DNA of 64,000 nucleotides from Raja brachyura (lineage: Eukaryota), in assembly GCA_963514005.1 (NCBI GenBank), contig OY740808.1:31186001-31250000 (forward strand), given 5' to 3'. The position numbers were made by a program, and so were the translations under genes. Below are positions 1,261 through 63,886 of this stretch, piece by piece. The notes below the pieces were generated by a model. The model was not told the origin of the DNA. It saw only the letters and a program-made list of their open reading frames with translations, and did no database searches. How positions within the stretch are numbered: the stretch's first letter is position 1; every line of letters starts with the position of its first letter.

Positions 1261-1393
1261 TGTGTAGGAAGGAACTGCAGGTGCCGGTTTACACCAAAGA
1301 TAGACACAAAATACTGGAGTAACTCAGCGGGACAGGCAGCATCCCTGGATAGAAGTAATGGGTGACGTTTCGGGTCGAGACCTTTCTTCAGAC
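1261..1393 (-). mobile_element. Short hammerhead-bearing PLE-derived element
   Basis: Full ~130-nt consensus on the minus strand; flanking near-repeat ACCTTCAGT(A/G)TTGT at 1250-1263 and 1392-1405. Confidence 0.85.
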
Positions 1394-1769
1394 CTTCAGT
1401 GTTGTTTCTCTAGAACACGCGCATTCTGCTTGTGATCATGAGGACTTCTTCCAGGTAATCCAATTTCCTCCTACATCAGAAAGATAGGCTAGTTGGCAAA
1501 TTAATTGGCTGCTGTAAACCACCCCCAATGTAGTTGGGTGGCAGGAGAGAATGTTGTTAGGTTGATGAGGGAGAGAGGATTGCAAAGAATCTTCTCACAG
1601 GGGTGGTGGGGAGATTACTCTGGTATCTGGCATTGACTTATTTGGTTGAATTGCCTCCTTCCATGCCTCCTTGGAAGAATTCATAAATAAAATATGAACT
1701 AAATCTTAAAAAGCATCTAACAACACCAAACTAGTAAAAGAAGGTAACTTGCAAATGATCTCAGAATAT

Positions 1770-1945
1770 GGGGAGATAGATAGGGCTCTTAAAAATAGCG
1801 GAGTCAGGGGATATGGGGAGAAGGCAGGAACGGGGTACTGATTGGGGATGATCAGCCATGATCATATTGAATGGCGGTGCTGGCTCGAAGGGCCAAATGG
1901 CCTTCTCCTGCACCTATTATCTATTGTCTATTGTCTATTGCCTTT
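1770..1945 (+). mobile_element. CR1-type LINE 3' end with (TCTATTG)n tail
   Basis: GGATATGGGGAGAAGGCAGG…GGCTCGAAGGGCCAAATGGCCT…CTCCTG plus tandem tail. Confidence 0.75.
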
Positions 1946-1985
1946 CTTGTTATTCTTGGTAGTAGTGAACATACCGTGGACATAT

Positions 1986-2465
1986 TGTGCCGGAAGGAAC
2001 TGCAGATGCTGGTTTATACCGAAGATAGACACAAAATGCTGGAGGAACTCAGCGGGTCAGGCAGCATCTCTGGAGTTACAGGTAAGAATCATTCTTCAGA
2101 CTGAAAGGATAGGGAAGGCCAGAACAAAACAGGGCTGGGAACAGATGAGCTCAAGAAGGGCAGAGACCATAATGCCGCAATGTTGACTGGGGAATAATGT
2201 TCTAATGACAGGGGTGTAAGGATTCGAACCAGGGAACAAGTAGGACAACTAGGGTGGGGGAGGGACCAGTGGGGAAAGTAATGCAGAGGTTTCTTGAAAT
2301 TAGAGAAATCAATATCATACCGTTGGGTTAAAAACGTCCCAAGCGAAATATGAGGTGCTATTCCTCCAATTTGTATGTGGCCTCACTCTGACATTGGAGG
2401 AGGGCCAGAACAGGAAGGTCAGTGTGGGAATGGGAAGGGGAGTTAAAATGTTTGTCAACCAGGAG
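1986..2465 (-). mobile_element. Penelope-like element 3' fragment (endonuclease C-terminus plus tail)
   Basis: Reverse complement matches 59130-59620 (…AAATTGGAGGAATAGCACCTCATATTTCGCTTGG…) and the short-element tail. Confidence 0.8.
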
Positions 2466-3249
2466 ATACTGCTTGGTGACATACTTCTTGTCAAAGTATT
2501 TCTGATTTATTTATCATCTTGATTCCTTTGCCAATTTCCAATGCAATCTCCAATGCCATTTCCAATGCCATCACAATGTTCAGAGGTGATGCTTAATTTG
2601 GTGGTGGTGTCAATTAATCAAATTATTTTATCCTGAGGTTGCTTCAGTTTCAGGTTTATTGTTTATCTGCAGAGAATGAGAGAGACAATCTGTATCGAAT
2701 TGCCCCTAAATTCCCATGCAGTTTAAAATACGGCATCACTATGTGTAAAATACACCATGTTTTGGAGCTATCTCAGGACTAGCTTTGCAGATTCTTCTTT
2801 GAATTAGCTACTCTGAAAGACTAATAAACAAGCTCAGGAATCTATAACCCAAAATTACTGACACGGATAATGGTAAATAAAAGTGAAAATGCAGAAAACA
2901 CACAGCAGTTCAAACAACTTTTGTGGAGAAATAATTCACTTTTCAGGCCAATTTCTTTTTGTGGTAGGTCTTTAAATCTGATATGCTGACTCAACTCCGC
3001 AGATGCTGCCTCATTTGTTAATTTTTAGCAGCATTTACGGAGTGATCTCAAGGAACCCCATCTTGTCTACAAGAGACACAAAATGCTGGAGTAACAGCAG
3101 GACAGCAGCATCTCTGGAAAGTAGGAATGGAGAGATGCTGCCTGTCCCGCTGAGTTATGCCAGCATTTTATGTCTATCTGTGGTGTAAGCCAGCATCTAC
3201 AGTTCCTACAGTTCTCAGCTAATACTTTGAGTCTTCAAACTTTCAGATG

Positions 3250-6969: not shown

Positions 6970-7345
6970 TTAGAATCACAGAATCATAGTCATACAGCAT
7001 GGGAGCAGGCCCTATGGCTCAACTCATCCAGGCCAACCAAATTGCCTCATCTAAACAAGTCCAATTTGCCTGCAAATGGCCCATATCCCTCCAAACCTCT
7101 CCTATCCATATACCTGTCCAAGTGTCTTAAATGCTGTTACAGTATCTCCTCTGGGATCCCATCACCCTATTGTGTGAAAAGGTGCTGCAGGTTCCTATTA
7201 AATCTTGCCCCTCTCGTTTTAAACATGTCCTCTGATTTTTGATTCCCTACCCTAGGGAAAAGACTGTGCATTCACCTTATCTATTCCCCTCATGATTTAA
7301 TACACCTGTATAAAATCACCTCTCATCCTCCTGCCCTCCAAGGAA
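6970..7345 (-). mobile_element. CR1-type LINE 3' fragment
   Basis: Reverse complement of the 38400-38645 type; similar minus-strand pieces at about 745-905, 46553-46882, 49205-49500 and 59620-60145. Confidence 0.75.
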
Positions 7346-7993: not shown

Positions 7994-8173
7994 TTAAGAA
8001 AGGACTGCAGATGCTGGAAAAATCAAAGGTCGACAAAAATGCTGGAGAAACTCAGCGGGTGAGGCAGCAACTATGTAGCGGAGGAATAGGTGACATTTCG
8101 GGTCTTCAGAACCTTCCTTCGCTCCGTAGATGCTGCCTCACCCGCTGAGTTTCTCCAGCATTTTTGAGTACCT
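7994..8173. mobile_element. Foldback (inverted-pair) PLE-derived element nested in an older copy, 15-bp TSD
   Basis: Arms TGCTGGAGAAACTCAGCGGGTGAGGCAGCA and TGCTGCCTCACCCGCTGAGTTTCTCCAGCA; TCTGCAGTTTCTTGT at 7979-7993 and 8174-8188. Confidence 0.85.
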
Positions 8174-11216: not shown

Positions 11217-11358
11217 CTGCTTACATAAATAAATCAGAATGGAATCAAATTTCAGTTAATGAGAAATCTATGTATGAAAAAGCACAGATATCATTTAATT
11301 CTTTGCTTTTGTCAGTAAATTTGATGAAACATCTTATAAACAGCATAGTCATATGTTG

Positions 11359-11926
11359 AAGGTAGACACAAAATGCTGGAGCAACTCAACGGGTCAAGGA
11401 GCATCTCTGGAGAAAAGGAATAGGTGACGTCTCAGGTCGAGTGCCTTCTTCAGACTGAGAGCCAGGGGAGAGGGAAACTAGAGTTATGAATAGGTGCAGA
11501 ACAAATCAAAGCTGACACCGATGACCCAGGAGCCCACAATGATTATTTGTTGGATGTGGAGGAGGTGATAACAAAGGGATATGAACAGTGAAACTAGCAG
11601 GATGACTAGTGTGGGGGAGGGAAGGAGGGAGAGGGAATGCAAGTGTTACTTGAAATTAGAGAAACCAATATTCATATCACTGGGTTGTAAACTGCCCAAA
11701 CGGAATATGAGAATGGACCATTGTGGATTCCTGGGTAACCGGTTTGTTCTGTACCTTTTCATACCTCCAGTTTCCCCCTCCCCTGAATCTCAGTCTGAGG
11801 AAGGGTCTTGACCCGAAACCTCACCTATTTTATTTCTCCAGAGATGCTGCCTGACCCACTGTGTTACTCCAGCATTTTGTGTCTATCTTCGGTGTATACC
11901 AGCATCTGCAGTTCCTTCCGACACAC
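11359..11926. mobile_element. Long inverted pair of PLE 3' ends in the last TBX5 intron
   Basis: Minus-strand tail plus 3'UTR and endonuclease end (11359-11710), followed by a plus-strand end with hammerhead-like motif at about 11793. Confidence 0.8.
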
Positions 11927-12499
11927 ATAGTCGTATGCTACATGCACACAGTGTACTAAGTGTCTTACATCTCTGGGCCACTTCAAATCCGCATGCTCAA
12001 GTTTCATTTCACAGGCCTGAATGTAATGTCTTGGCTCACATTCCATGTCATAGCAAAGAGAAGAGGCAATGCCAGAGGTGCCATACTTTGGGAAGAGACA
12101 CTGATCTAAAGCATTTTCCCCTCATTGATGAATATTAAAGAGTCTGTGATAGTATCTGAAGAGCAACAATGGAGTTCTTCCCCAACTTCATGGCAAACAT
12201 TTAAGCCCTAATCAATGTTACCAAATGCATTGACTATCTGGTCTTAACCACATATTGGTATATATTAGTAGGAATGAACTGCAGATGCTGGTTTACACCA
12301 AAGATAGACACAAAATGTTGAGTAACTCAGTGGTTCAGGCTCAAGTCCCGATCCGAAACATCACGCATTCCTTCCATCCAGAGATGCTGCCTGTTGTTGG
12401 TGTATATTACCCAAGTTACAGCAGTTGCCATACTTCATTAGATGTAATGTGTTCAAGAATGTAATGAAGTTATAAATAATCCATTCTCTGCAAATCTTT

Positions 12500-12820: not shown

Positions 12821-14023
12821 CCCTTCATCTTGGAAGACACAAAAAGCTGGAGTAACTCAGCGGGGCAGGCAGCATCTCTGCAGAGAAAGAATGGATGATG
12901 TTTCGGGTCAAGACCATATGTCTCCCTTTTCCCTGAGTTTCAGTCTGCAGAACGGTCCGGATCCGAAACGTCACCCATTCCTTCTTTCCAGATATGCTAC
13001 CTGTCCCATTGAGTTACTCCAGCATGTTTGTGGCTATCTTCTGTGTAAACCAGCATCTGCATTTCCTTCCTTGGTAGTCTGGAGCTATCAAGTCATTTCC
13101 CTGTCTTTCACTTCTCTCAAATCACAAAGTGTGAACATATCCGCGGTGAAGTAACAATTCCCACGTCCATACTTCAATGAGTTTATAAGCCAAGGAAATA
13201 TTCCTGCACCCTTTACTTCTGTGGTGTCAAGGGGTCTGATAATCAGCCTCTGGTGGTATATTTTGCGAAAGGGTTACCTGCATAAGATATATCTCCACAA
13301 AAGCTATCTCTTGCCTTCAGCTTCCACAAAGTATTGCTAAAATGCACTTAGGAAGAAACCGTGGTGACAAGCCCAGCCTGTGTGAGGTTGAGATGGGATT
13401 TGCAAGGTCACATGTTCATTTCACATCACAGCATTCCATCTCGCCACTGTAGCTCCAAGAGTTGTTTATTTTTTGACACTCAAGCGGAATAGATAACTGG
13501 TTATTTGGAGAAGCCACCCACAGGATAGACAGTTCAGATTTCTCAGTGGGAACACTTGAGGTGCATTGCTACTTGTCAGTTTATTTTCTACATCTGTTCA
13601 TGCTCGATAGTACGACGCTGCAAAGTGTGGCTCTCGCAACGTTATTGGAACTGGGAAAACGGTTTCAGTTTCAGTTTAGTTTATTGTCACATCATGTACC
13701 GAGGTACAGTTAAACGTTTTTGTTACGTGCTAACCAGTCATCAGAATGCAATACATGATTGCAATCGAGCCATTTACAGTGCACAGACACATGATAAGTG
13801 ATTAACGTTTGGTGCAAGGTAAAGACAGCAAAATCCGATCAAGGATAATCCGAGGGTCACCAAAGAGGTAGATTCACCAAAGGGGAAAACATTTAATTGC
13901 CCATTCTAACGTGCGCTATCTATAGACCTTTTCGCCTTATAACATTTCAAGCTAATATTAATGCCTGTGACAGATTGTGTGGGGGTGCATAATGAAGCGC
14001 CGCGGCCACGGAAGACGCCTTAC

Positions 14024-14247: not shown

Positions 14248-14286
14248 CTGTAGGCATAATTGCAAAAGAAAATGCGTTAATGCCCA

Positions 14287-14522
14287 AGATGGACCCAACA
14301 TGCTGCTGTAACTCAGCGGAACAGACAGCATCTCTCGATAAAAGGGATGGGTGACGTTTCGGGTCGCGACCTTCCTTCAGACTCTAGCGGTAAGACGCCC
14401 TCAATACTACCCTCATCCCTAACCAGTCTGAAGAAGGGTCTCGACCCGAAACGTCACCCATTCCTTCTCTCCTGAGATGCTGCCTATCCCGCTGAGTTAT
14501 CCAGCTGGCTGTGTCTATCTAC
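14287..14522. mobile_element. Foldback PLE-derived element with a hammerhead motif on each strand
   Basis: 14351-14382 (minus) and 14426-14458 (plus) motifs with complementary tails. Confidence 0.85.
14426..14458 (+). ncRNA. Minimal hammerhead ribozyme motif, consensus copy
   Basis: GT-CTGAAGA-A-GGGTC-TC-GACCC-GAAACGTC-AC: CUGANGA core, stem II, GAAA, palindromic ACGT in place of stem III, GUC site; activity not shown. Confidence 0.75.
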
Positions 14523-15410: not shown

Positions 15411-16544
15411 CTAAATTAGAAATCGAAAAATGTTATAAATTCCTCACAATATGTTAACCAAATATTTTAAAACAGCACCCCGCGTAGACGCACCCTGTGA
15501 ACATAATGACAATGCAAAAACAATGGGCTTGACGTGAAGATGGACTTTAAGTGCATACCTGACCCATTATTTTTTCAAAGATAGACACAAAGTGCTGGAG
15601 GAACTCAACGGGTCAGGCAGAATCTCCGGAGAGTTTCGGGTCGGGACGCTTCTTCAGACCCTCTAGAGTAAAAGGATGGGTGCAGAAAGGTCCCGACCTG
15701 AACTGCCACCCATCATTCTTTCTCCAAAGATGCTGCCTGACCCGTTGAGTTACACCAGCCATTTGTGTCTATATTTCGTATAAACCAGCATCTGCAGTTG
15801 TTTGTTCATTTAAACTTTTCTTATTTCACAGTGTGATTTTTTATTCGTGTTTAAAGAAAGTACGTGTTTTTACTCAAACCTTCCGAACGTTTTAGAACAC
15901 GGTGACTGAGGATGCAAGAAAATGCAAAGTGCTGGAGGAACTCAACGAGTCAGGCAGCATCTGTGGAGGGAATGGACGGGCGACGTTTCGGGTCGGCACA
16001 TTTATTCAGACTGACAATATTTTTAAAATATTGAAACGGGATGGAGCACATGTCGGTATAGTTTATAGCAATGTTCTGTAACATTAATCTGTCACCGAAT
16101 TGTGTAAAACTAAGCGTGTGATATAAACCTTTGCGAGGTGACCGGTCATGCTGATTTGAAAGTTTCATTATCGCCTAGAAATCTAATGGGCACAAAAAAC
16201 AGTCGTCGAAAAGAGAATCTAAAAGCCTTTGAATTGGATTTGGTTGCTGAATAATTGCAAACCCAGTTGAAAGAGGCGGTATAAAAGTGCCCATACTGTC
16301 CAGGAAACTTCCTGGGGACTTCATATGTCTCAAGTAATTTACTGTCGCTTTCCGAACACACGTGTTAGCCGCTGCTTTGTCTGAATTGATCGGACGTTGG
16401 GTATGTTGACCATTATAGCCAAGCTGCCAAGCGCCGACTCCGGCCACGTCCGTTCCAGGTATTGATGGTGGAACAGTCGCCCTTACTAGCATTTAATGAA
16501 TTAGCCAGGTCGGATTGAAAATGAAGACATATAGAACCTAGTTT

Positions 16545-16725
16545 TGTGTAGGAATGAACTACAGATGCTGGTTTACACCGAAGATAGACACAACATGCTG
16601 GAGTAACTCAGCGGGACAGGCAGCATCTCTCGACCCGAAACGTCACCCATTCCTTTTATCCAGAGATGCTGCCTGTCCCGTTGAGTTTAGTTACAGTTAA
16701 TCTAGCATTTTGTGTCTTTCTTCGG
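16545..16725. mobile_element. Foldback PLE-derived element with 13-bp TSD
   Basis: Inverted arms; TAGAACCTAGTTT at 16532-16544 and 16726-16738. Confidence 0.85.
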
Positions 16726-19121
16726 TAGAACCTAGTTTGTTTTTTTTTTTTTTGGGGGGGGGGGGGGGTCTGACTTTATTATTGAATGTATTATTTATTA
16801 TTCTAAAATAATAATATTTTATTATTATTATTTGTAACAAAAGTTGCTATCTTCGTGTATTATCATCTCACTGCTCGGAAAATGTACGGCCAATATTTTA
16901 CACAACTAAATATCCTGCAGTGTGTATTTTGGGCAAGTCCAAAGGACCAATTCAAACATTAAAACTTTCCGTATATTCCGTGAGCAACTTGTGTTGACGA
17001 TTTTGAAAAGTCCTTTTCCTAAATTCGTTCCTTTTAAGGTGAGAAAATTTTATCCCGTGCTGATCCCGTCAACGGCACAACGAGGTGCAATTAGTCTACA
17101 AGTAATACTCAACAGCGTAACTTTGGGAGCTGGCGTTATAATCAATTGGGTTTTCGTAAGTGTGAAGTCACGGCGCCGTGGCATTATACAAATACAAGGC
17201 ACTACGCCACCGAAGCACCATAAATCAGAATGGAAAACATGCGGGCGTTAACTTCAGTAATATGAGCTGAACTAACTTTCATTTTTATAAAATATCTTTG
17301 AGTTATTTGAGTTTAAAGTATCCAAATTAAGTTGTTTTATAACGTATCTTATTGATAGAAAATAGCCAACTTCGATTTCATATCTCAAATAGTGCACGCA
17401 TTCTTGCTTTCAGATTTATACATTAGACAAATATTTAATATACCATGTATCTAATAACACGTCATTATTTTATATATTTCTAACAGTTTTTTTGAAAATA
17501 TTTTCGATGAACATTCCATTAATCTCAGTATGAAAATATTAGTGAGTTATTTTGAGCGTGCTTTGTGTTTAATTTGTCTTGCAAACTCCGGTCAGTATTT
17601 TTGTGTCCCAAAGTGATGAGGAATACAATCATTAAGCAGAGAGAGGGAAGGTGAGAAACGATAATGACGCGTTACTAACTCATTGATGATTAAATATCAT
17701 TTCCCCAACTAATCACAGGTTACTTTACAAAAAGCTTCAAAGTCACATGGCAGAACCTAAACGGCTTCATACTTAACATGCCCATGTTAATAAAAAGGAT
17801 AGCAGGATTCAGTTGTGCTGAGCACTAAACCTCCGGGAGTAAATGCCGCTATGTGTATGTCTAATTAATTGTCCGGCCGTCTACTTGTAAAGAGTTTTAA
17901 ATTATGTGCTTCTCAGCCAAATAGTGTATCCTGTTACTAACTTTCAACCTGCCAGTTTTGAATTAATTTGATATTTGTTCTTCAGAAGCTCACACTTTCT
18001 AAGAAGCAGACATTGATTGGCACAGCTCATTTACACGAATGTTCCCTTGCTGTTAAATTGGTAAAAATCCTCGAATCCCAAGGACCACATTTCATAGGCG
18101 ATTTTTTATTAAAGGACGTCTCCTTGAAATGTTTTACCATCTCGTGAAGAATATTAATATATTGTTCAAACCCCAATCTAATGCTGCAAAACCTTTGGCT
18201 TGATGGAATTTCAAGGGAAACGCAGTCTTTTTTTCATTAAAAGTGATAAATGTCAGGTCCGTGTTGCAATTGGTGAACTGCAGGTGAGGCTCTTGCTTTG
18301 ATTGTGGTTGGAAATTTAAATGAGTTCCAACTCCAAGCCTCGACCTTTTACTGGAATAACCGTTGCTGGAGAACGTGTTTGCCCGTCAATTGTTTAACCC
18401 GACGGTGAGCCAATTGAACAGAACTATAAAATATGGTGTTTTCCCCTCCTCAGATCGTTCAATGACATCCGCCAGAGTGATTGTTGATCTTTGAAACTTT
18501 AATCCTCAACTAATTCCCCAACTGGCGTTATTTCACTAAAGACGGAAATTAAAAATTAGTCTAAACTTTTCATTTGTGGTGAGTTATGAAAGTATCTTCA
18601 TATGATGCAAGCCACACTCAAAATCCCTGACGGGACAAAAAATAAGCGACCTTAATCGCAAACGGTAGACGTCTGGAATAAAAGCAGAAATATTCAAAAT
18701 ATACCGCGACCCATCAGCATCTAATAATAAAATGAAAACAGTTTGGGGGCGTGTTACTCAGTGATCTGAAATTTACTGCACACACATCTTCCCAATCTTA
18801 ACTATTTTATGTTCTTAGAATCTAAGCAACTATATCAATATAAATAATCAACGTTTAAATATTTAATGTGTGTCCATGAAATTAATAATTAAACTATAGA
18901 AGAAAAGTGTCGCGTTCGTTCGCAATGTACCGCAGTAACAACATCCCCTTATCGATTGCGACCTGTCCATTTTTTTTGCCCAATTTCACGCCGGGCAAGT
19001 GATCGATAAAACCACAAGACTGGATGCTGCTTCTCTTTACAAACAATATGTTGGAAGTGAAAGTTGGAATTACATGGGTGTGAATGGGCGAATGGATTCG
19101 AGGTAGTTCAAACTCACTTTA

Positions 19122-19283
<162 letters not shown>

Positions 19284-19403: not shown

Positions 19404-19500
19404 GTCTGAAGAAGGGTCTCGACCCGAAACGTCGCCTATCTCCTTCGCTCCTTAGATGCTGCTGCACCCGCTGAGTTTCTCCAGCTTTTTGTGTAACCCC
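19404..19500 (+). mobile_element. Short hammerhead-bearing PLE-derived element with 13-bp TSD
   Basis: Starts GTCTGAAGAAGGGTCTCGACCCGAAACGTCGCC; CGTGTAAGATTCT at 19391-19403 and 19501-19513. Confidence 0.85.
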
Positions 19501-19517
19501 CGTGTAAGATTCTTCCT

Positions 19518-30300: not shown

Positions 30301-32153
30301 CCTGAAATATTCGGAAGGTTTTTACCACATATTTCCCTCAACTCAATTATTTGACTTAGTTTTGAAACAACATTCGTTATAAAATCAATGCATCGAATCT
30401 GGGTGCAATATAGAATGGAATTTCATGTAGTATACCATGAATCGGCCCGAATAAATAATTACGCATCCCATTTAGCACAATGGTCTCAAGGTACTTATCC
30501 ATTATTGTATATTCAAGTCGTTTTATTCTTTAAGGGTTTCATCGTGATGAATAATGCAGAGCTACCAATTGCACATTGTGCACCGTTGACTCCGGGAACA
30601 TTTGTCACAATGATATGGGTCAATATGAGGTGGTTGAGATCTGAAAAAGATCTCCTTACATGTACGGTTTAATAAATAATAATTTTACAGTAACCCAATT
30701 ATCAAAAGATGAACTGAATTCAGCGAGTATTGGATTTCATTTTTAGCATTATTTTTGTTTTCAAGGGCTCGTCGTTGTTTAAATTAAACATTTTCCAAAT
30801 AAAGCGTAATTTAAAGTTCTTTAAATTGGCAACCGTAAATGGGACAATATTTTATTTTATTAGTCGTGGCAATTAGTTGTTGGCGGTTGTTGGGAATTAA
30901 CAAACGTTTCATTAAACCAGTCTTGTTATCCACATCCTTCATTAGAATCCCTGCCTACATATAACAAACAGGGCACTGCATTTAACTTTCCACATGCGTT
31001 AAACCTGTAAGAGGTTGGCGTGTAAATGCTTATGCAAGCTTGAAGGTCTGTTTATTTTAAATAAGATGAATTTATCTTTAGAATAAATGGTGCATTTTAT
31101 GCCTTCAGCTCAAATCCATAACGTGCATCGCGTGATGTGTTAGCAAGCAAACGTTAAAATGATCCCATAAGTTAAGTTATTTTCAAGTTAAGGTCGTTCT
31201 TACTATAGATTTCGAGAGTAAAGTTTTAATGTGTACTGAAATGTTATCTACTTATTTTGCCGGGTTTCAATACATTTATCGCTGTTCTTAAATACTTACA
31301 TGTTAAATATTACACATGGTAGCCATGAACGAATTTGGCACACGTAAAATGTGCACATTTGGAATGGCATTTGAGTAGGGGATGTGTAATTAATTGAAAT
31401 ACATTAAAAAATACGGAAACGACTTTACTGACTTTGTTAATTCGATGGGAGTATCTATATTGCTAATAAACAGGTGTAAATTAGGCAGGGTTAATGGGGG
31501 GGGGGGGGCATCCAAATTGGAATCGAACGACGAACCCATGATTTCCAATCACAGTGCCAACCTGGAATGGCCCACATCAACAATCCTACTAAAAATATAA
31601 CTCGACATGTAAGGTGCTCAGATGCTGACTCCGTCCCATCCACGGGGGACATGATGGAACGCACGCCACTTGCAACGCTATCCAGGTTCAAGAAGTTCAA
31701 GAAGTTCAAGAAATTCCAGATTAAAACAAATGCTTCACCGGCACCCAATTCACCATAATTCCATCAAGACGAATGGTCGCTGTCCGCTCTGTGCACAACC
31801 TATAAATTCTTGTTCAAACTTATATGACAGTGCTTAAAAAACCCCAACCATCTCCAACGTTTAGAAGGACAAAGCCAACTACCACATGGGAACCCCGGCA
31901 TCTCCAATTTTCATTCCATGATATACATCACCCCAATGGGGGAAATATAAAGTCTTGCATTCCTCCATCATTCTTGGGCCAAAATCATTTGGCGTCCCAG
32001 CGAACAGTTGCAAGCCATTTCCCCATTCGGAAAAGATACTCAGTCCTACCTTCTCAGAAGCGATTAGGATGAGCATTAAACGTGGCTCAACTATTCCCAT
32101 AGGCCATGAAGGAAATCAAAGGAGCAGCTAAGAAATAATGTTGTGCTTACGTT

Positions 32154-32249
32154 AGGTAGACAAAAGTGCTGGAGAAACTCAGCGGGTGCGGCAGCATCTA
32201 TGGAGCAAAGGACATAGGCAACGTTTCGGGCCGAAACCCTTCTTCAGAC
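32154..32249 (-). mobile_element. Short PLE-derived element (subfamily B) with intact hammerhead core
   Basis: Revcomp GTCTGAAGAAGGGTTTCGGCCCGAAACGTTGCC; stem II kept by G-U wobbles. Confidence 0.8.
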
Positions 32250-45130: not shown

Positions 45131-45317
45131 CTTCTCATTATCACAGCATAACCTGCTGGGCATGTCCTACAGCCCTGCATTTCACACCATTCCATTGGTA
45201 ATGGTTTATTAATGTCACGGGTACCAAGTTGCAGGAGATTCACATTCTCTAACTGCCCTCATCTCATGGTTTACATTCTTCGCATCAACTTTTTTTACCA
45301 GGTGGCCTCACCAACCT

Positions 45318-45410
45318 GTCTGAAGAAGGGTCTCAACCCGAAACGTCACACATTCCTTCTCTCCAGAGATGCTGCCTGTCCCGCTGAGTTACTCCAGCAT
45401 TTTGCGTCCA
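45318..45410 (+). mobile_element. Short PLE-derived element with hammerhead core
   Basis: GTCTGAAGAAGGGTCTCAACCCGAAACGTCAC plus conserved tail. Confidence 0.8.
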
Positions 45411-46129
45411 TCCCCACAGCAACCATGGCTTCACATTGTAAATGATATCCCCTTTGCCCCATCCGTTCATTCATTCCTCAGCTCGATGAAGAATTTGGTG
45501 AGCAAAATATAGTAAGATATTTAACATGAATGTTATTTACAAAATACACTTTTTTTTGCTACAGTGGGATAAATCAAATACGTTTTAAGATGCAAATGAA
45601 TTACCTTCAACACAATACTTTGCAAATCACCCAACAAAACATCTCAACTTTAGTCTATCTGTCAGAGATGTCAGGCATTCTCATAGCAATGCCCAATGTA
45701 AGTTTGAGGAAGAACACCATATCTTCAATCTGGGAACATTACAGTATTCCAGATTCAATGTCAAATCTCCGACATTAGCTGAACTGCTTCTCTGCCTGTA
45801 CAAAAACTGTCCATTTCTGCCAATCATCACCAATATTCAGTCAGTTGTCTACATTCGATTTTTATTAATCTTGTCTATCAACACATTGCATGTGCATGGT
45901 GCTGCATCCACATATGTGCATCTTTCAATTGTATGGCTGCACATCTGTAGTTTGCAAGGAAGTAATAACATTTGTAAATAGGCGTCTGCATATTCAAATT
46001 GGTTCTCGGGCAGCCTTGGTGAAGTGACAACCGGAATAGTGAAGTTTGGGAATGAATAGAGCAGAGAAAGTTTTGTATTAACATTTTTTTAATTTACTTG
46101 GAAGTAATTAAACTGGATAGATGTCTCTA

Positions 46130-50618: not shown

Positions 50619-53600
50619 TTTAAAAGTTAGATTCTGCTTCTACTGCCGTTTGAAGACGAGTTCGAAAGCATTAGGACAGAAAGCAAACACGCCCCATTTC
50701 TGCCTTAATCTGAAGCTCATTGGTTTTAAAATTAACCCCTGCTTCCTCAGGATGCTACATGTTTCTATTAAGTCACCCTCCTCTGAACGCCGGCAGATAT
50801 AACCCTAGCCTGTCCAACTTTTCATTTTTAAACACGAATGTTCCAGGTACCGCCCAGCTAACCTTCTCTGAACGGTCTCGCTTCATAAATTGAGTTTTTT
50901 TTTTAATGCGCTTCAGACTCCCCATTAGTTTGTTTTTGGCGTGGACGGATGAGAATCGACTGTTCAGAATTCATTAATTCCTTAGCTGTGAATTGGTTCC
51001 ACTTTTGAACCGTCAGTGATAATATTGCTCGAAATGAAGGTCTACCTACCAACGCTATCCCCAAACGCACTTCGCAGAATTCTCATGTATAGGCTGATGC
51101 CCGCACCGCAGTGATTCCTTCGCCGTCCTTTCCTGCCATTAGCAATTCCATATATGCCAAAGTCGTCTATCCTGGTTTACATTTGCAGTCTGCTATTTTG
51201 ACTTGACGAGGAATTAAGATTGGACACTCCTCGTGTACCACAAATACAAGTTGGATCGACACCTTTGTTTGGTGCCAGGGGGCGTATTTTCTCGGTAGAC
51301 CCATGCATCGTCCTCCGAATCTTCGACTGAGAAACCTACTTGAAGAAATTCCCGATCAGAAAAAGAATGTCACCAATACAGAGCAAACAATAAAAAACCC
51401 TAACCCCTCAGCATTGATGTTGCGCGAACAGTTATCCTTTTCACCCCAACCCCCACACAAAAAAACAAATGTTTGGATTGGAACATGATATTGAATTTGC
51501 AGCGATCCATACACAAGAATGAGAGTGAACCATTCAGTAGATTAGCAACGTTTTCCGGCCGTGGGTAGTTTGAGAATTTGCTCGGCTGCAGATATTATGC
51601 ACAATAGTATTTTAGTATTGGAAAGCCCGAGAACCGATTAAACGAAACCGACTATGTGGAACCACATATGGAGCCGTCTGTGTTGAAATAAACGCAAATG
51701 CACCGTGGCAATAGCAAACGAAGGGAACCTTGCATATATATTCATTCACCATCCTTGTTCTCGTTTGCAAAACTGACACATAGGGACTTGATCAAATAAA
51801 TTCATTTTTCAATCGAATCCCGTGCCAATCCCGTCTAAGAAACAAGCAGGCCGAAACCACGTTGGAGAAAGAACGTGTAAGAAAGAACTGCAGATGCTGG
51901 TTTACACCGAGGATAGACGCGACGTGCTGGAGTAACTCAGCGGGACAGGCAGCATCTCTGGAGAGAAGGAGACGCTGCTTGTCCCGCTGAGTTACTCCAG
52001 CATTGTGTGTCTTATGCGTTCAATTTTTCGTGGAGACAAAATAAACGCTGCATCATTGCAGCTCCAAGCTGTTCCTCAACAAGCGTAGTTAAATATTCAC
52101 TCCACCCAGACGTCTGCACCTATTTCTGTCAGCGTGACAAGTTGATACATTTGAGAGGCTGTACATTGAAATTTGACACTGAACACCCAAAACTACGAGC
52201 GTTGCACGCTCACACCTGTCCAATACACTTGCATTTATGAAGCCCCGTTTTAACTTGATTTTTAAAGGTCAGATAAAAGGTCATCAATCGGAAACGTTAG
52301 CTCCGTTCCACTCTCCGCCGATGCTGTCAGGCCCGCTGAGCATCTCATCCTTTATTTGGTTTGTACTTGCCTTTGTAATATGTGTTGGATGGAACTGCAG
52401 GTGCTGGTTTACACCGAAGATAGACACACAATGCTGGAGTATCTCAGTGGGACAGGCAGCATCTCTGGAGAGAAGGTCCGGGTGACGTTTCAGGTCGAGA
52501 CCTTTATTTGAATACATGTGGCGCTTTTAAATTCCAGAGTTGTGATGGGGTTGAGTTTCGTATCCCCCCGTTTATGTCAAGCTAACGGTGAGTATGGGTC
52601 ACCTAGGCAAGTCCAATACAAAGATCTAATCATATGGGGGTATATGGGGTGGGGGGGGGACCTGGCTTTAAAATGGTGCCGCGATCAACCAATCAGATGA
52701 ACAAATAGATTGGGATTCACATGTGAAACTTTGCAGAGTACAATGGATTAATCGTTTCTTTATCCTAACTAGACACTCGACCCCGTCTATCGGGCAGCTG
52801 CGGTCAGTTTTCACCCGAAATCAAACGCTATGCAGTGGAGCTCCATCCACGTTTCTGATATTTTTATTAGGAGTTTCAAATTCTCTTTTTGCTTGGAATT
52901 TGCCTTGAAGAGCGCCGTTGTTCGAAGCGTTACATTAAAAATGAATTTATTGGATCAAGTCCCTGCGATTTAGTTGTTGGTGGAAGCCAAGAAGAAATGG
53001 CTTAAGATTTTGCGACACTGAACGGGGGACATCTTTCCGATAAAGCTGCCAATTGAAAGCAATTGTTTGGTCTCTCCCAGAATTTAAATCCAATTTCAAC
53101 AACCTCGTTGCAACCGCACAGTCCGTTTGAATCGATTCTCGCTTCTGCTGACTGCTTGGGGCGAATGAATAATAAGTTGCTTCAAACCCAGTAACATTTT
53201 GTTATGAGGTTAATCAAAAAGCCAGGCACTGTTTCACTTTTTGAAGCGAATGCAATGTTTTCAAATCATAACGTTGAAATAGACAGCGTGAGTAATTAAA
53301 ACGAAGTTCCAGTGTTTATACCACAGCGCTCAACGATTGTATCTAGAACAGCACGTCTGTGAGATAAACATTACGATGGGATCATTCCCAGTTTCCCGAA
53401 CAAAGCATGTTATTTCTGTATTTGCATTTGGTTCGTTGTGTTCAAAGGAGCTGCGTTAACAAGCACAATTAATTACGGCGAGCAACATCTGGTTTGCAGT
53501 GAATTTCAATAGAAGGAATGTGTATTTTGTTGAAAGCAGCCCGTAGATTGGAATTAAATTTACAGCGCATATCCACTAGATGTGAAGAATTAGCCCCACT

Positions 53601-55479: not shown

Positions 55480-55705
55480 TGTGGGAAGGAACTGCAGATG
55501 CTGGTTTAAACCAAAGATAGACACAAAATGCTGGTGTAACTCAGCGGGACGGGCAGCATCTCTGGAGAGAAGGAACAGGTGACGTTTTAGGTCGAGACTC
55601 TTCGTCAATCCTGTCTGAAGAAGGGTTTCGACCTGAAACGTCAACTATTCATTTTCTCCAGAAATGCTGTCTGAAGCTCTGAGCTGCTTCAGCATTTTTG
55701 TTTCT
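55480..55705. mobile_element. Foldback PLE-derived element
   Basis: Minus copy 55480-55610 abutting a plus copy starting GTCTGAAGAAGGGTTTCGACCTGAAACGTC at 55613; similar foldbacks at about 3068-3207, 12835-13070, 15578-15800, 39165-39385 and 51876-52012. Confidence 0.8.
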
Positions 55706-57734
55706 GTTTTGCAAAACGAAAATCTCGTTTTATTTTCTGCAAAATAATCTAATGTTTGATATTCTCCAGATCATCGGGGGGGAAATTTGAATATTTCCGA
55801 ATAGGAAGGACAGGCTTCTTCCCGACAGTAGACAAAAATAATGGGAAGGTGTGTTCAGAAAACGACAGAGGATGGGAGCGAGAAAGACCGTCCTCTCTAC
55901 CCCCCCCCCCCCCCCCCCCCCCAAAACCTCCTCGCCAGCCCCGCCAATACTAGCTGCATCATCTAAAGGGGATGCCTTCATTTTTATGGTTTCCTATGTT
56001 AAGGTGAGCAAGAATGTAGTTTCCCCCTTTCAATTTCCGCCATCTGCATCACAGAAACTCTGCTGCAGCCATTAGCGACCTTTAATTTATTGCACAACTC
56101 CCTCCAGATTTAAAACACGACCAGCGTGTTAGTTTAAACTTGCAGAAGTTCCGCGCGGCCGCACTGATGTACGCATGGATGACGTGTACACAACGATATC
56201 GATGTCCCGATTGTGGTGGTCGGTAAACAGCAGAAATGAACATTTAATTCTGATTTCCAAGTGGAGTTTCTCAACAAGTAAAGGACACAAAATATTAAAT
56301 ATATTATTACACTTGCCAATGGGAATGGGACGTGAAATAGGTCTAAGTTTGTTTTGTTAGCAAACTTTCAAACAAATTCAGGGGAATTTAAACTCTTCCT
56401 TTGCTAATTCCTCGCTTATTTTTTCATATACTCTTACTGTTCATTTTACACCAATCTAATTATTGCCATCACTTTTTCAAGGTTGAATCTGTGCCTTGGA
56501 CCTTTTGCCTGTACATTCGGTCGCCATAATTTCGAACCACGGGGTTTGTGTGAACTTGGCTTCTTGTTTTTATTTTTTGTTCCCATTGGCCTTTCTCAGC
56601 GCAAATAATACTTTACTTCAATCGCCGCCTCCTGCGCTTTCCTAGCATTGCGCCCGATCTCATTTTTTTTAAATAGAAATAGTTCTCACTTGCAAAACAG
56701 ATCTTAAAAAATTAACAGTATAATTACCACACCCTTAAGCTCACCTAACAGTCTAATAGACGCAATAAACAAAACGTAGCCTGAGACTAACCAGCCAGTT
56801 AGCCTCTACCAGCGCTTATAGAATCACGCGAGACACGGTTAATTATTCATATAACCTGCACATTTTGTCGATAATTAGGAGCGAAGAACAACACAAGAGA
56901 ACGATTTGAACTGCAGAGGGGAACGAAGGCAGCATCTAACATTGAGACTATTTACGGGTAGATCTGACTCGAAAGTTCATAGCCACACATTCATGGAATT
57001 ATATCTGGATAGATTATTGTCCTAAATTCGACGAATTTGCCTAATGGTTACTTCGAAGTGCCAATTTGGTTTCGTTTTAGTTTCGTGATACAATGCCAAG
57101 GTTTAAGCATTTTAAAGTCATCATTAATTTCATTCCGTTTCTGTGTTGTTCGTAATGGAGACATCTTACATGGAAGCCAGACCTTTTATATTTTGTGGTT
57201 GAATACCGTAAACCAAGAGTTGTGTAGGAAGGACTGCCGCTGGCGGTGCTGGAGTATCTCGGCGGGATAGGCAGCATCTCTGGAGAGAAGGAATGGGTGA
57301 CGTTTCGCGTCGAGACCTTTCTTCAGACTGGAGTTACTAAATTAAAGTATTGAGAGATTATGTATCTCCAGCGGTTCAATCACAGGCATTGGCCGATTGG
57401 TTAGTGAGGATGTACCTCGTTATCTCATGCAGCACAGCACTTACAGTCGAAACAAGGCATCATTAAAAGCCAACATTTTAAAACCCAGTTATGATTTATT
57501 TGAAAACAAATGCCCATCGCAATGAGCAACCCGTCTTTAAAAGTCTTTACTTTGGTGGATTTAAGTATCTAGAATTTGAAACTCCTCGTTTTTTTTGGAG
57601 GTGCCTGCATTGTTTTGCGGAGCGCACCCATGCTGAAATGGCCACACTCGACCCGAAACGTCACCAATGCCATCTCTACAGAGATGCTGCCTGTCCCGCT
57701 GAGTTGCTCCAGCATTTTGTGTCCATCTCTGACA

Positions 57735-59620: not shown

Positions 59621-61849
59621 CATATCCTATATCCATGTACCTGTCCAAATGTTTTTTAAAGGCTGTGATAGAACCTGACTCAATTACCAGCAGCTCATTC
59701 CATATACCTACTACACTTTATGCAAAAAAATTGCCACTCAGGTTACTATTAAACCTTACCCCCCCCCCCCCCCCCCCATTACCATAAACCTATATCCTCT
59801 TGTTCCTGACTAGCCAACTCTGGGTTAAAGAGTTTGTGCATTTACCCAATCTATTACTCTCATGATCTTATGCACCTCCATAAGATCATCTCTCATCCTC
59901 CTGCGCTTCAAGGAAATGTCCATTCTTGCTCAACCTATCCCAGAGGTGTGGCTCTCAAGTCCTGGCAACATCCTAAAAAATCTTCTCTACACTCTTTCCA
60001 GCTTAACAACTTCTTTCTTATAATGGGGTGACCAAAACTGAACACAATACTCTAAATGTGGCTTCACCAATGTTTTGTACAACTGTAATATGATGTCCCA
60101 ACTTCTATGCTCAATACACTGACTGATGAAGGCCAATGTGCACAAAGCTCAGTGTGCCGATGATTTTTCTTTTAGCAGTTTCATCAAAATCTTTTCCATG
60201 TTACTTCAATAAATCTACTCATAAATTTGCAATGAATTCCTATCTTCCATAAATTCAAGCATTTAGAGCCCCAGTTAAACACAATAATTAGCATAGGAAT
60301 GCGATAGTATTATTGAAGTTTTTATGTTTTTACTATTTTCAATTTTAGAAAAATAACTATGTTAACAGTGTATTTCTATCCGCATTAAATTTTAATATTT
60401 ATAATGTGACTTTGCACCCAATTCAAACAGCAACCAAAACGTTCCAATAATAAGTGTTTTTTGATGAAGCTAAACCCTTGAATATTCGCAGGTACATGTG
60501 TCGAATTAAATATCACAGTCATGGAACCAAGCAAAACTGTATCACAAAAAAGGCAGAAACTTTCTCTGATACATACCTGGCAAACAACGTATGGCCATCT
60601 CTTGCCAAAACTGAGCACACTGAGCTCATTCATGTCATACACTCCTCTGCCAAAGGAACCAACAGCACAGGATCAACTTGGAAAAGAAAATCAATCCCAG
60701 TTTTCTCATTATTACCAACCACATCCTCAAATTATTTCCCCCGGACCCTTCCACCCACAGAATTAAGAGCAAGTGTAAGTGGTTCATTGTTTTATTCACG
60801 GTTGAGATTAACACAAGGTGTCCTGCTTGCTCTTTCACCCCAAGTTAAACCCTTGTATCTTAATTTACCCCTGTCTCTCATTCCCTTTCACTCTAATTTC
60901 TTACCCTCTCTTCTCCCTGGGCTTATATCATCCACGTGATTCACCTTCTAATCCAAGTTTCTATTCCCATTAAACACTACACCATCCAACTGCTATTCTT
61001 TTATTTTTTGGCTCAATCACTCCATTTCCATCATATTTACATTTAAAATATTTTTTCCTACTTCCTGACTTTCCCCCTCACTATTAAATTAATGCTAAAT
61101 CTCCTGCTTCAAAATGTTCTCATCTTCCCAGTCTTTCTTTATGATAATTTCAGTCTTCCTTCTGGCTTGACATTGTACGAATGCATGGCTTCCATCTGTC
61201 CCAATATCCCTCTCTCCTCAAATTGCATATTGTAGTTTCTTTAACCCAGGTTTCTGCTCCACTCACAACCCCAAGAAAAGCCATAAACATGGTCTGTAGC
61301 CAAAACTATTATCTATTTTGCCTCGTCATCTCTTTGAGACAGATGAGTAGAATAGAGTTGTGCCCACATATTTGTGCTCTGCTTCTAAAATCTAGTTCAA
61401 TTGAAATTAATGTGCAAACCAATATTGTACATGGAGAGGTAGCAGTGGCAGATGAAGAATTGCTACACGCTCTGTATGAACTCAGTTTGGGATTTTTGTT
61501 CCTGAATATGGACAGGTTGAACTACAGAGGTATATCAAAAACATGATGACTCCTTGGAAGAAATGGAACATGTTCAGAATGGAAGGTGTTTGGAGACTTT
61601 GGTTAATCTGCAATTTTATGACAATGTAATAATAACATAATTCTGTGATCTAGTTTCAATATGTTTCCAGAGTTGTATGGTATACTATATTGAAAATATC
61701 TTGAAAAAATACAAAATGCTGGAGCAACTCAGTGGGTCAGGCCGCAAACAGCCTGAACATGGACAGGTGACGTTTCGGGTTGGGACCTTTCTTCAGACTG
61801 TAGTATACCTTCACTGCCATGCCATATTTCACACATTATGGCTTCAGGT

Positions 61850-62140
61850 ATTTGGCCTATGGCCTATCGAGTCCAAACTGATTGTCAAGCACACATTCAC
61901 ACTAGATCAATGTAATCCTACTTCCACATTCAATCCCCACACTTTAGTGACAATTTTACAGAGGTCAATTAACCTACAAACCTGCATGTCAATTGGGATA
62001 TGGGTACAAACCGGAGCACCTGGAGGAAGTCTACGCGATCACAGAGAAAAGATGCAAACTCCAAAGACAGCACCTGAGATCAGGATTGAACCCATGCCTC
62101 TGCCGCTGTGAGGCAGCAGTTCTACCAGCTGCGCCACTGC
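61850..62140 (-). mobile_element. tRNA-derived SINE (same family)
   Basis: A-box TGGCGCAGCTGG and B-box GGTTCAATCC on the minus strand. Confidence 0.8.
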
Positions 62141-63534
62141 AGTGCCTCTTACCAGTAGGAATGATGACACACTCCAAACACCTGCCATCACTATTCTGTA
62201 ACATTTATCACGAGGTTGCAACTTTTACACATGGAAATCCTTAAATGTCTGTTAATGATGCGGTACCTGTTCGCAGTCTGCTCTGTTACAGCCTCCTCCT
62301 TCTCAGATGAGTTAAAAATGATGCAAATTTAACTTTTCAAACATAGTAGCCTGATTTCAAAATATCCTAAAAATCATATGATTAACTACAAGCAGTTAAA
62401 GTGAGTTTTAACTTTATCTGCAACAATCTATTAAAAAATAATAATTTCCAACAATCTGTCTATCGAAACCTCCCCCCCCCAATTACAAATGCTTCCTGGT
62501 TTCCAGTCTGTGAGAATCCTTTAATAGATTAGCTGCTGTGCTCGTTGAATGACACCCTAGCTGCAGGCTGCCAGAGATGCTCTCATGGTAATGCCTGACA
62601 CGAGCAGATGTCAGAAAAGAGGCAATCTTCCACAGAGCCAGCTAGATCATTGTGGCAGTAGTTTTGCCTCATTGAGTGGAAATGACAGCAATTGTACATT
62701 TCGAGCTGTTGACTGAAATAAAGGTTATTCTTCTTACGGCAAAGAATCCTAAAAAAGAAGCAAAAAATCAAACGCTGGAGGAACTCAACAGGCCAGGCGG
62801 CTTCTATGATGGAGGTGCCTTGTGGCTCCAAGGCTAGGACTTGATTTGATTGAAGTGTATAAAATCATGAAGATTCCAGTTAGTAAATAAAGAGAAACAA
62901 TGCCCAGTGGCTGAACGATTGATAATCAGAGGGGAAACATTGAGATGGTGTAAAAAAATGAAAACAGCCCCTTGTTATAAAGTTAAATCAATATTTTGAA
63001 ATAGGAAAATACTGACAGGAGGTCTGAAGAAGGCTCCTGACCTAACACTTCACCTTTCCATGTTCTCCAGAGATGTTGCCTGATGAGTTGAGTTACTCCA
63101 GCACTTTGTGCCTTTGTTTGTAAACCAGCATCTGCAGTTCCTTGTTTCTACAGGAGAATGGATACATAGTTTGGGACAATCTTCAGTATGGAACTGAGTA
63201 AATAGGTGATGAAGGAAAAATTTAAGGACATTAGTATCAAACAGCACTGACTTGATAACCTGCTCACTGATTCTCCATCAGGTTATGCTATTTGCATTGA
63301 GCCTCAGATTTAGGGCTAAATCTCCCAAAATGACAGCCTTTTATCTCCAAGAATAATAAGTGCAGTTGGTACATAGTAATCCCAATATCTCAACATTCCC
63401 CTCCAGGATGCACGTTTACTTGACTTGGAAATATAATACTATTCTTCCATTGTCACTGTGTCTACCTTTTCCGAGTGCTTACCCAATGGTACTCTGGGTG
63501 TCCTCACAAGGACAGTTTGAAAAAGTGATAGCAA

Positions 63535-63886
63535 TAGAGATAGCGAAACAGCATGGAAACAGGTCGTATAGCCCACCGAGTGTGCCGACCAGTCTCGACC
63601 TGAAACGTGACCCATCTCTTCTCTCCAGAGATGCTGCTTGGCCCGTTGAGTTACTCCAGCAGTTTGTGACTGCCTCCAACCAACAATAACCCATACAGTT
63701 CTATCCAAAACACTAGGGACAATTAACAGAGGACAGCTAACGTACAAACTTCCACGTCTTTAGAGTGTGGAAACTGGAACACCCGGAGGAATCCCACGTG
63801 GTCACTCCATACAGACAGTGCCCATAGTCAGGATCGAACTAAAGGTCCCTGGCACTCTAACGCAGCAACTCTGTGCCACTGTGCTG
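63535..63886 (-). mobile_element. tRNA-derived SINE interrupted by a PLE-derived short element (about 63591-63670)
   Basis: SINE tail and head separated by …CTCGACCTGAAACGTGACC…GAGATGCTGC…. Confidence 0.75.

What the first reader, a model, noticed from the sequence alone, without database searches (positions are those of the whole stretch)
1261..63670. High-copy ~130-nt hammerhead-ribozyme-headed short retroelement derived from a Penelope-like element
Seen in sequence: roughly 25-30 copies of a short repeat whose sense-strand head is GT-CTGAAGA-A-GGGTC-TC-GACCC-GAAACGTC-(A/G)C. The best copies are at 14426, 19404, 45318 and 55613 (plus) and 1361-1393, 32217-32249, 57296-57328 and 61766-61798 (minus). 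Some stem II variants keep pairing (GGGTT/GGCCC, GGGTC/GGCCC, GGGTT/GACCT) while others carry mismatches, and the base after GTC is A or G, either of which pairs with the U before CUGA. Established: CUGANGA...GAAA..UH is the hammerhead core, and PLE-associated minimal hammerheads with a palindromic stem III (here ACGT) cleave as dimers. Inference: many copies begin within a few nt of GTCTGAAG, and 19404-19500 has its own TSD. This suggests a discrete SINE-like unit without Pol III boxes, mobilised by the PLE machinery, rather than random truncations. PLE hammerheads are known, but I cannot tell whether this family is annotated.
Basis: partly seen in the sequence, partly recalled or inferred. 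Interest (0 to 1): 0.85.

Follow-up and report, generated by a model that had tools for sequence, protein, structure and literature searches.

The report
Penelope retroelement run-off copies, not SINE
These short repeats are the ribozyme-bearing end piece of a very abundant Penelope-like jumping gene, not a separate SINE, and their sharp common start and strictly one-tailed head-to-head pairs likely record two reverse transcriptases copying one RNA until they run off its front end.

Summary
The repeat is real: 46 copies in the window, about 350 per Mb of genome. It is not a SINE. The motif is the pseudo-LTR hammerhead of a 4.04-kb RT + GIY-YIG Penelope-like element with a Neptune-type linker. 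It lies about 235 nt after one ORF's stop and 163 nt before the next ATG.

Short and long copies share the same variants. The pile-up of starts is real: 56 of 99 young copies that reach CUGA start within 5 nt upstream of it (about 1 expected). Only 1 of 123 starts at the predicted cut site.

In 28 of 28 unbiased pairs exactly one arm carries the 35-nt tail, and both arms share their fate at the boundary.

Best reading (inferred): internal priming near the RNA's 5' end gives strong-stop-like run-off copies, and the boundary is probably the transcription start. Cleavage and RNA ends are untested. This scan found the same pile-up before in two other genomes; the paired-arm statistics were not in those notes as shown.

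The parts
19404..19500 (+). Solo short copy of the youngest subfamily, from about -2 to +93 (no tail), intact core and stem II, 13-bp TSD CGTGTAAGATTCT
19406..19433 (+). Minimal type I hammerhead motif: CUGAAGA, bulged A, stem II GGGU(C)/(G)ACCC, GAAA, palindromic ACGU, predicted cut after 19433; helix I only 2 bp
   Evidence: sequence; descriptor of PMC4209133
57808..58484 (+). 3' fragment of the young PLE (-602 to +92): GIY-YIG coding end (ORF stops at 58157), 3' UTR/pLTR, hammerhead at 58392-58419; 90% identical to natural partial tandem L043
58481..59631 (+). Older, broken PLE 3' fragment (RT end and EN, 39-60% aa identity to L043 protein) ending in a hammerhead at 59531 and the +93 end
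14410..14514 (+). Copy cited as 14426; it extends to -18 into the pLTR, with a likely 9-bp TSD, and lies head-to-head with 14267-14383 (-); neither arm scored as tailed
1261..1393 (-). Solo short copy starting at about -2, with the tail (+128 class)
16544..16734 (.). Head-to-head pair, one arm tailed and one not, 13-bp TSD TAGAACCTAGTTT round the whole pair
55486..55712 (.). Head-to-head pair joined at the hammerhead 5' edge; minus arm tailed, plus arm (the cited 55613 copy) not
3063..3209 (.). Head-to-head pair, one tailed arm, both cut inside the unit
7997..8170 (.). Head-to-head pair, one tailed arm
12271..12394 (.). Head-to-head pair, one tailed arm
12826..13068 (.). Head-to-head pair, one tailed arm that extends to about -22
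15554..15804 (.). Head-to-head pair, one tailed arm
39158..39369 (.). Head-to-head pair, one tailed arm
51878..52013 (.). Head-to-head pair, one tailed arm; its hairpin explains the sub-threshold Rfam hits at 51927-52000
32135..32250 (-). Solo short copy of the subfamily with stem II GGGU-UUCG-GCCC and GUU cut triplet
45317..45416 (+). Solo short copy starting at about -2, no tail, intact core and stem II
57247..57329 (-). Solo short copy starting at about -3, possible 7-bp TSD
61699..61800 (-). Old solo short copy starting at about -4
11348..11711 (-). Longer PLE 3' fragment: pLTR continues upstream of the motif and matches 59234-59618

Best explanation
The repeats are insertions of the end module of an autonomous Penelope-like element, and the short ones are likely run-off (strong-stop-like) copies, made when reverse transcription primes about 95 or 130 nt from the front of the element's own RNA and reaches its 5' end just before the hammerhead.

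Shown: the element is a 4,038-nt unit (ORF, 3' UTR, hammerhead at 0..+31, two 3' ends at about +93 and +128, next ATG at +163). Starts pile up at -5..0. Paired arms differ by exactly one tail and sit in one TSD.

Inferred:
(1) The RNA begins at about A(-3) in YCAGT, an initiator-like site, probably capped.
(2) A protein dimer nicks both target strands 7-18 nt apart and primes at +93 and +128 on the same RNA; the +93 enzyme leads.
(3) If priming is at the module nearest the RNA's 5' end, both copies stop at -5..0. If it is at the downstream module of a read-through transcript, they run on into the 3' UTR and ORF and truncate at about 0.001 per nt.
(4) Joining the two cDNAs gives a head-to-head pair; joining one to the target gives a solo copy.

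Short copies are probably dead ends. The hammerhead is kept by selection in source elements, but its cut is not what delimits the copies.
For: Anatomy.

Pile-up: 56 of 99 copies reaching 0 end at -5..0, against 0.7-1.6 expected from flanking rates; among solo copies 33 of 65. Genome-wide, 6,268 of 17,680 exact heads extend to -11. The same edge appears in older subfamilies and as loose ends at -2/-4 in contigs of three other coded organisms.

Template holds the ORF start: 4 of 24 ORF-start-bearing copies begin at -5..-3 and end at +202..+260, as do two more.

Pairs: one tail in 51 of 52 pairings (the exception is a spurious second pairing without TSD) and in 28 of 28 unbiased ones. TSD of 8 bp or more round 45 of 52. 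Of 17 pairs in which both arms reach 0, 11 both stop, 6 both pass, 0 are mixed (p 3e-5). The untailed arm is longer at its 5' end in 13 of 15 unequal pairs (p 0.007).

Extra G: the base before AGTCTG is G 1,410, A 828, T 483 times. Among TSD-defined solo copies a single extra G is seen in 4 of 7 G-loci, against 1 of 18 A-loci and 0 of 16 T-loci for their own base.

No stable fold upstream of the edge (-60..0: -2.5 kcal/mol). Internal priming at two sites that match the tail ends, cutting of both strands and a predicted dimer are published for an anole PLE (PMC11167929).
Against: No RNA 5' end was observed: only assembled contigs were available, and their RNA status is a guess.

The G excess is partly an artefact of inverted partners (13 of 30 G-loci). 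Single extra bases at other truncation points are also mostly G (3 of 4), so the G may be an enzyme preference rather than a cap copy; the numbers are small.

In Drosophila virilis Penelope the start site is about 120 nt upstream of the intron end (371 vs 491; PMC2377424), and it is the intron end that maps to helix I (PMC4209133). The pyrimidine-rich CAG|T here fits a splice acceptor as well as an initiator.

Shared fate of arms also fits a lasting block on one RNA. No full-length copy starting at -3 and spanning the whole ORF was seen among 24 ORF-start-bearing copies. The unbiased young set comes mostly from the first 3.8 Mb of one contig.
Confidence: 0.55

Rival explanations
1. Same origin, but the boundary is not a transcription start. 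It is a processed RNA end (5'-to-3' trimming up to the protein or ribozyme footprint) or a lasting block to the enzyme, such as factors bound at the pyrimidine tract and CAG acceptor-like site.
For: The edge matches a splice-acceptor consensus and the place where the D. virilis intron ends. Shared fate of the arms fits it. Starts are spread over -5..+8 rather than on one base. The cap-G evidence is weak.
Against: No stable upstream structure. No pile-up at candidate branch points (-12: 1 of 125). The modal solo start is -3 (10 of 79), the initiator position, with some extra G.
Confidence: 0.27
2. One reading: an independent, non-autonomous SINE-like unit of about 130 nt with its own source copies, mobilised in trans by the PLE.
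For: Sharp ends on both sides, TSDs (92 of 162 solo young copies, 7-18 bp), very high copy number. Non-autonomous PLE derivatives exist (PMC8557442; bioRxiv 10.64898/2026.07.22.740005). If the promoter is internal, short copies could be transcribed.
Against: No diagnostic variant separates short from long copies. Every large subfamily has long forms. Boundary-start copies run into the ORF. In the anole PLE the RNA must extend about 55 nt past the priming sites (to +172 vs 111-118), which short copies would lack if the same holds here.
Confidence: 0.08
3. Copies come from spliced RNA, the boundary being an exon junction at CAG|T.
For: Acceptor-like sequence, and the D. virilis precedent.
Against: Only 5 of 161 boundary-start copies have sense PLE sequence directly upstream, and none joins at -1 with loss of the AG. 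In TSD-defined copies the target duplication abuts the head, leaving no room for an exon.
Confidence: 0.04
4. The units are retrozyme-type monomers released by hammerhead self-cleavage, with or without circularisation.
For: The head is conserved at 98-100% between subfamilies while its flanks fall to 53-89%, so it is under selection in source elements.
Against: 1 of 123 copies starts at +26..+30. No tandem arrays of the unit in the window. The double-hammerhead fold scores -6.1 against -21.1 kcal/mol for the best cofold.
Confidence: 0.04

Closest known systems
Canonical EN+ Penelope-like elements, Neptune type (PMC8557442)
   Same: [quoted passage not shown]
   Different: The passages read give no sharp pile-up of 5' ends at the hammerhead edge and no count of the one-tail rule or of shared fate of arms. 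Clade was not tested by a tree.
PAc, Poseidon element of the green anole (PMC11167929)
   Same: Two internal priming sites matching the tail ends; hammerhead upstream of them; cleavage not needed for insertion; both target strands cut and extended.
   Different: In PAc the ORF starts inside the hammerhead and the priming sites are 111-118 nt into the ORF. Here both 3' ends lie before the ATG (+163), and the protein has the Cys linker that Poseidon lacks.
Minimal PLE hammerheads (PMC4209133)
   Same: Type I, bulged base before stem II, G10.1-C11.1, palindromic stem III, mostly single dispersed motifs 'probably related to truncated PLEs', some close pairs on opposite strands.
   Different: Helix I is only 2 bp and stem II 4-5 bp, shorter than their typical 4-5 and 7-8. 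Copy number (about 0.9 million by extrapolation) far exceeds the 4,000-9,000 they report for coelacanth and Xenopus, with a different method.
Animal non-LTR retrozymes (bioRxiv 10.64898/2026.07.22.740005)
   Same: Derived from PLE pLTRs, carry a type I hammerhead, non-coding; monomers are dispersed.
   Different: Retrozymes are defined as tandem repeats with a hammerhead in each unit. These copies are solo or inverted, and are not a lineage apart from the PLE.
Retroviral minus-strand strong-stop DNA and L1 twin priming (both recalled, no call)
   Same: Priming near the RNA 5' end gives a short run-off cDNA; two primers on one RNA give an inverted insertion.
   Different: Analogy only. Here the run-off product is integrated, and the two arms overlap fully rather than dividing the RNA.

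Membership tests
EN+ Penelope-like element | Single ORF with RT followed by GIY-YIG endonuclease | tested here: met
   Pfam RVT_1 (E 1e-4) then GIY-YIG (E 7e-4) in L043, both under the curated cut-offs; YIDD and IYIG motifs in the sequence. The three multi-unit loci inspected (L043, L347, L356) have broken frames; no unbroken full ORF was seen.
EN+ Penelope-like element | Partial tandem forming a pLTR that holds a hammerhead | tested here: met
   L043: ORF end, 3' UTR, hammerhead, ATG at +163; period 4,038 nt.
EN+ Penelope-like element | Optional 30-40 bp tail and adjacent inverted 5'-truncated copy | tested here: met
   3' ends at +89..95 and +126..130; 46 of 125 unbiased young copies are in head-to-head pairs.
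Neptune clade | CX2-5CxxC linker between RT and EN | tested here: met
   CNRKRCYTC in P0002; feature shared with Nematis.
Neptune clade | RT groups with Neptune in a tree | not tested
   No reference PLE proteins were fetched.
Minimal type I hammerhead | Core CUGANGA...GAAA, UH triplet, stem II, palindromic stem III | tested here: met
   Commonest letters match at every core position; intact core and stem II in 44 of 162 copies covering the head, and 6 of 46 window hits. Rfam gave no hammerhead match up to E 1.
Minimal type I hammerhead | Covariation in stems | tested here: inconclusive
   0-2 of 162 double changes per stem II pair; changes are mostly CpG decay. One subfamily variant keeps stem II with a U-G pair and UUCG loop. 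The head is far more conserved between subfamilies than its flanks.
Minimal type I hammerhead | Self-cleavage as a dimer | not testable with these tools
   Needs an assay. The dimer fold is not the predicted minimum (-6.1 vs -21.1 kcal/mol), in a model that ignores core tertiary contacts.
SINE | Head derived from a Pol III gene (tRNA, 5S, 7SL) | tested here: not met
   No tRNA in the window; no such Rfam match; the head is the PLE's own pLTR.
SINE | Own lineage of source copies, distinct from the autonomous partner | tested here: not met
   No variant differs between 167 short and 50 long young copies; older subfamilies tested only for presence of long forms.
Non-LTR retrozyme | Tandem repeats with a hammerhead in each unit | tested here: not met
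   No such array in the window; a few two- or three-unit short tandems seen elsewhere, not surveyed genome-wide.
Non-LTR retrozyme | Circular RNA bounded by the cut sites | not testable with these tools
   No raw RNA reads were offered; copy starts avoid the cut site.

The most novel reading that the evidence does not exclude
This genome holds a fossil record of the PLE reaction. One protein dimer primes twice on a single capped RNA, at +93 on one target strand and +128 on the other. When it acts on the module at the RNA's front, both enzymes run off the cap, so about half of all insertions are obligate strong-stop waste. The hammerhead sits on the first 30 bases of the mRNA, where cutting would remove the cap, making it a switch for translation or decay rather than a tool that releases the template.
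Probability: 0.35. Interest if true: 0.75.

Novelty: new variant of a known kind. Interest (0 to 1): 0.48.

Why it matters
How PLEs make their inverted pairs and one-sided tails, and what their hammerhead does, are open questions in the papers read (PMC8557442, PMC11167929). Tens of thousands of near-identical young insertions give sharp predictions: one tail per pair, shared stopping point, untailed arm leading, starts at -3 and not at the cut. These can be tested directly in the existing in vitro PLE assay.

For annotation, a repeat of perhaps 0.9 million copies should be filed as PLE ends, not as a SINE or as active ribozymes; only 44 of 162 head-covering copies keep an intact core and stem II. 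The element class, the hammerhead, the tail and the inverted copies are all known, which caps the score.

Tried and rejected
Rfam scan: no hammerhead match up to E 1; the psbJ and mir-3170 hits are sub-threshold matches to the hairpins of inverted pairs.

Monomer folding: no stability beyond shuffles (z -1.1 to 0.8), and the hammerhead fold is not the minimum.

First end-mapping: false peaks at -53, -165 and -225 came from indels private to the reference. It was redone with 11 natural references.

Raw G excess before AGTCTG: not taken as proof of a cap, because 13 of 30 G-loci are inverted partners and 5 of 30 T-loci are long copies with a point change.

Transcript evidence: all 24 runs offered were contigs. 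Four were laid; they cannot show starts, one 'RNA' run is probably DNA, and no splice-type joint at the boundary was among the 15 joints listed (179 not shown).

Spliced-template and cut-site models: rejected.

Covariation: R-scape is not available; my own pair counts were uninformative. Dfam and Repbase cannot be searched here, so whether this family is already annotated is unknown.

Literature: searches for hammerhead + Penelope + shark, + strong-stop (0 papers), twin priming (one unrelated review), skate + Neptune (0 papers), and searches showed no report of the pile-up or of a counted one-tail rule. Subscription papers are not covered, and Lunse et al. (PMC5785218) was not held.
Full report
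Coordinates: position 0 is the first C of CTGAAG in the repeat; the predicted ribozyme cut is after +27.

1. Observation. The 28-nt head occurs 24 times in the window within 6 edits, including all eight cited places. A profile built from 143 natural copies finds 46 hits in the window, 350 in 100 evenly spaced 10-kb stretches of the 2.7-Gb genome, and none in the same stretches reversed. That extrapolates to roughly 0.9 million copies. One 34-mer of the youngest subfamily has 56,829 exact matches. The TSD at 19404-19500 is confirmed. The window also holds three T-box exons on the minus strand at about 19125-22026, so many copies are intronic. That the host is a cartilaginous fish and the gene tbx5-like is my recall, from no call.

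2. What the repeat belongs to. The ORF at 57765-58157 encodes the end of a GIY-YIG endonuclease; the search with it had 112,586 first-look candidates, and the 150 scored were 94-99% identical. Of 20 loci fetched for long frames, 19 list an ORF with this ending, and 18 of them have the hammerhead head 222-251 nt after the stop. Locus L043 is a natural partial tandem: RT and EN, 3' UTR, hammerhead, then the ATG of the next unit at +163, with a period of 4,038 nt. Pfam gives RVT_1 then GIY-YIG, both below curated cut-offs. The linker CNRKRCYTC fits the Cys motif of Neptune and Nematis elements (PMC8557442, passages). So the 'head' is the pLTR hammerhead of an autonomous PLE. Only 564 exact matches of a 35-mer cover the junction into the ORF-proximal region, about 1% of the 34-mer count.

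3. Ends. Among 140 young copies the 3' ends cluster at +89..95 and +126..130. This is the known optional tail, which in an anole PLE lies between two internal priming sites (PMC11167929, parts 1-2 of 4 read). For 5' ends I used 125 copies chosen only by an exact match at +46..+79: 111 from the first 3.8 Mb of contig C1 and 14 from the spaced sample. Of 99 that reach position 0, 56 end at -5..0, a rate of 0.119 per nt, against 0.0012 upstream and 0.0027 at +9..+45, i.e. 0.7-1.6 expected. A shoulder of 14 ends lies at +1..+8. Only 1 of 123 ends at +26..+30. Genome-wide, 17,680 exact heads start at -2 or earlier and 6,268 of them continue to -11 with the commoner allele (a minor allele and mutation explain only part of the loss). 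Older subfamilies show the same edge, as do contigs of three other coded organisms, with loose ends at -2 and -4.

4. Not a SINE. At 19 variable positions, 167 short and 50 long young copies do not differ (lowest p 0.07), and both are about 1.9% from the reference (this set includes loci selected by head pattern). All four subfamilies with at least 10 copies include long forms. Of 24 copies bearing the ORF-proximal junction, 4 start at -5..-3 and end at +202..+260, and two more were seen earlier. The RNA with this 5' boundary therefore ran into the ORF. There is no tRNA-derived head.

5. Head-to-head pairs. 46 of the 125 unbiased copies are arms of inverted pairs, as are 20 of 46 window hits, with exactly one tailed arm in 9 of those 10 arrangements. 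Over all loci, 51 of 52 pairings have exactly one tail (50% expected if arms were independent, p 1e-14); the exception is a spurious second pairing of an arm already paired. A TSD of 8 bp or more flanks 45 of 52. In the unbiased loci alone it is 28 of 28. Of 17 pairs whose arms both reach 0, 11 both stop at the boundary, 6 both pass, none is mixed (p 3e-5). The untailed arm reaches further 5' in 13 of 15 unequal pairs (p 0.007). Three of the six passing pairs end within 20 nt of each other far upstream (-47/-66, -997/-999, -1837/-1850); the other three do not. [quoted passage not shown]

6. Mechanism (inferred). The simplest account is two enzymes on one RNA, priming at +93 and +128 from nicks on opposite target strands (solo TSDs are 7-18 bp, mode 13, in 92 of 162). 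At the module nearest the RNA's 5' end both run off; at the downstream module of a read-through RNA both continue. YCAGT at -5..-1 is conserved among long copies of older subfamilies and fits an initiator with A(-3) as +1 (consensus recalled); -3 is the commonest solo start (10 of 79). The base before AGTCTG is G 1,410, A 828 and T 483 times, but 13 of 30 G-loci are inverted partners. Among TSD-defined solo copies, a single extra G appears in 4 of 7 G-loci against 1 of 18 and 0 of 16 for A and T; yet 3 of 4 single extra bases at other truncation points are also G. The cap reading is thus suggestive only. The site equally fits a splice acceptor, and in D. virilis the start is about 120 nt upstream while the intron ends at helix I (PMC2377424 parts 2-3 of 4; PMC4209133 parts 1-2 of 4). 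No spliced copy was found among 161, but trimming or a bound block remains open.

7. The ribozyme. The motif meets the minimal hammerhead description, with a 2-bp helix I (paired in 98 and 102 of 112 copies at the first two positions, 8 of 112 at the third). It is 98-100% identical between subfamilies while the next 64 nt are 76-88% and the upstream 56 nt 53-89% identical (top-decile pairs), which points to selection in source elements. Inserted copies decay: 44 of 162 keep core and stem II, and compensatory changes are 0-2 per pair. One subfamily swaps to a UUCG loop with a U-G pair. The dimer fold is far from the predicted minimum, in line with the protein-assisted cleavage reported for the anole element. 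Activity is untested.

8. Prior work. Also seen: bioRxiv 10.64898/2026.07.22.740005 (parts 1-3 of 5; supplements closed and possibly listing chondrichthyan families), PMC6765202 and PMC6155905 (passages). Two earlier notes of this scan describe the same 5' pile-up in other genomes; I read them after searches had given the result. A look-up for the paired-arm rule returned nothing.

Verdict: real and non-random, a new member of a known PLE kind with an insertion signature not found in the papers searched; the SINE reading is not supported. Interest 0.48.

Noticed in passing
window 19125-19286, 21266-21409, 21883-22026 and 10633-11220 (all -): Three T-box exons and a likely last exon of a T-box gene (tbx5-like by recall); another T-box gene lies about 105 kb beyond the window. 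The young insertion at 19404 is about 120 nt from an exon.
   Followed up: partly
repeat positions +28..+49, e.g. window 19434-19455: All main subfamilies keep a pyrimidine tract and AG directly before ATGCTG, a second acceptor-like site. Intronic sense copies could act as cryptic acceptors; no RNA evidence.
   Followed up: no
junctions of pairs, e.g. L166, L197, L199: Many pairs join through the near-palindrome CAG-T-CTG at -4..+2, so the two cDNA 3' ends may anneal there; this blurs the exact start in pairs.
   Followed up: partly
L339; G000:C1:162939585-162940241; G000:C2:59590117-59590479: Short tandem arrays (about 190-330 nt period) of head plus ORF start, possible seeds of retrozyme-like repeats.
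   Followed up: no
L043:1500-2250 (-), L347, L356: The PLE ORF has a long Pro/Ser/Ala-rich stretch between the N-terminal block and the RT, making a unit of about 4 kb; all three multi-unit loci inspected have broken frames.
   Followed up: no
window 44929-45126 and 45645-45846; 6971-7345, 46554-46869, 49204-49502; 37397-37780: Other dispersed repeats unrelated to the hammerhead unit, some resembling LINE fragments.
   Followed up: no
L228/L232, L237/L238, L318/L319: Near-identical insertions with shared flanks a few kb to 220 kb apart on C1, i.e. local duplications that slightly inflate copy counts.
   Followed up: partly
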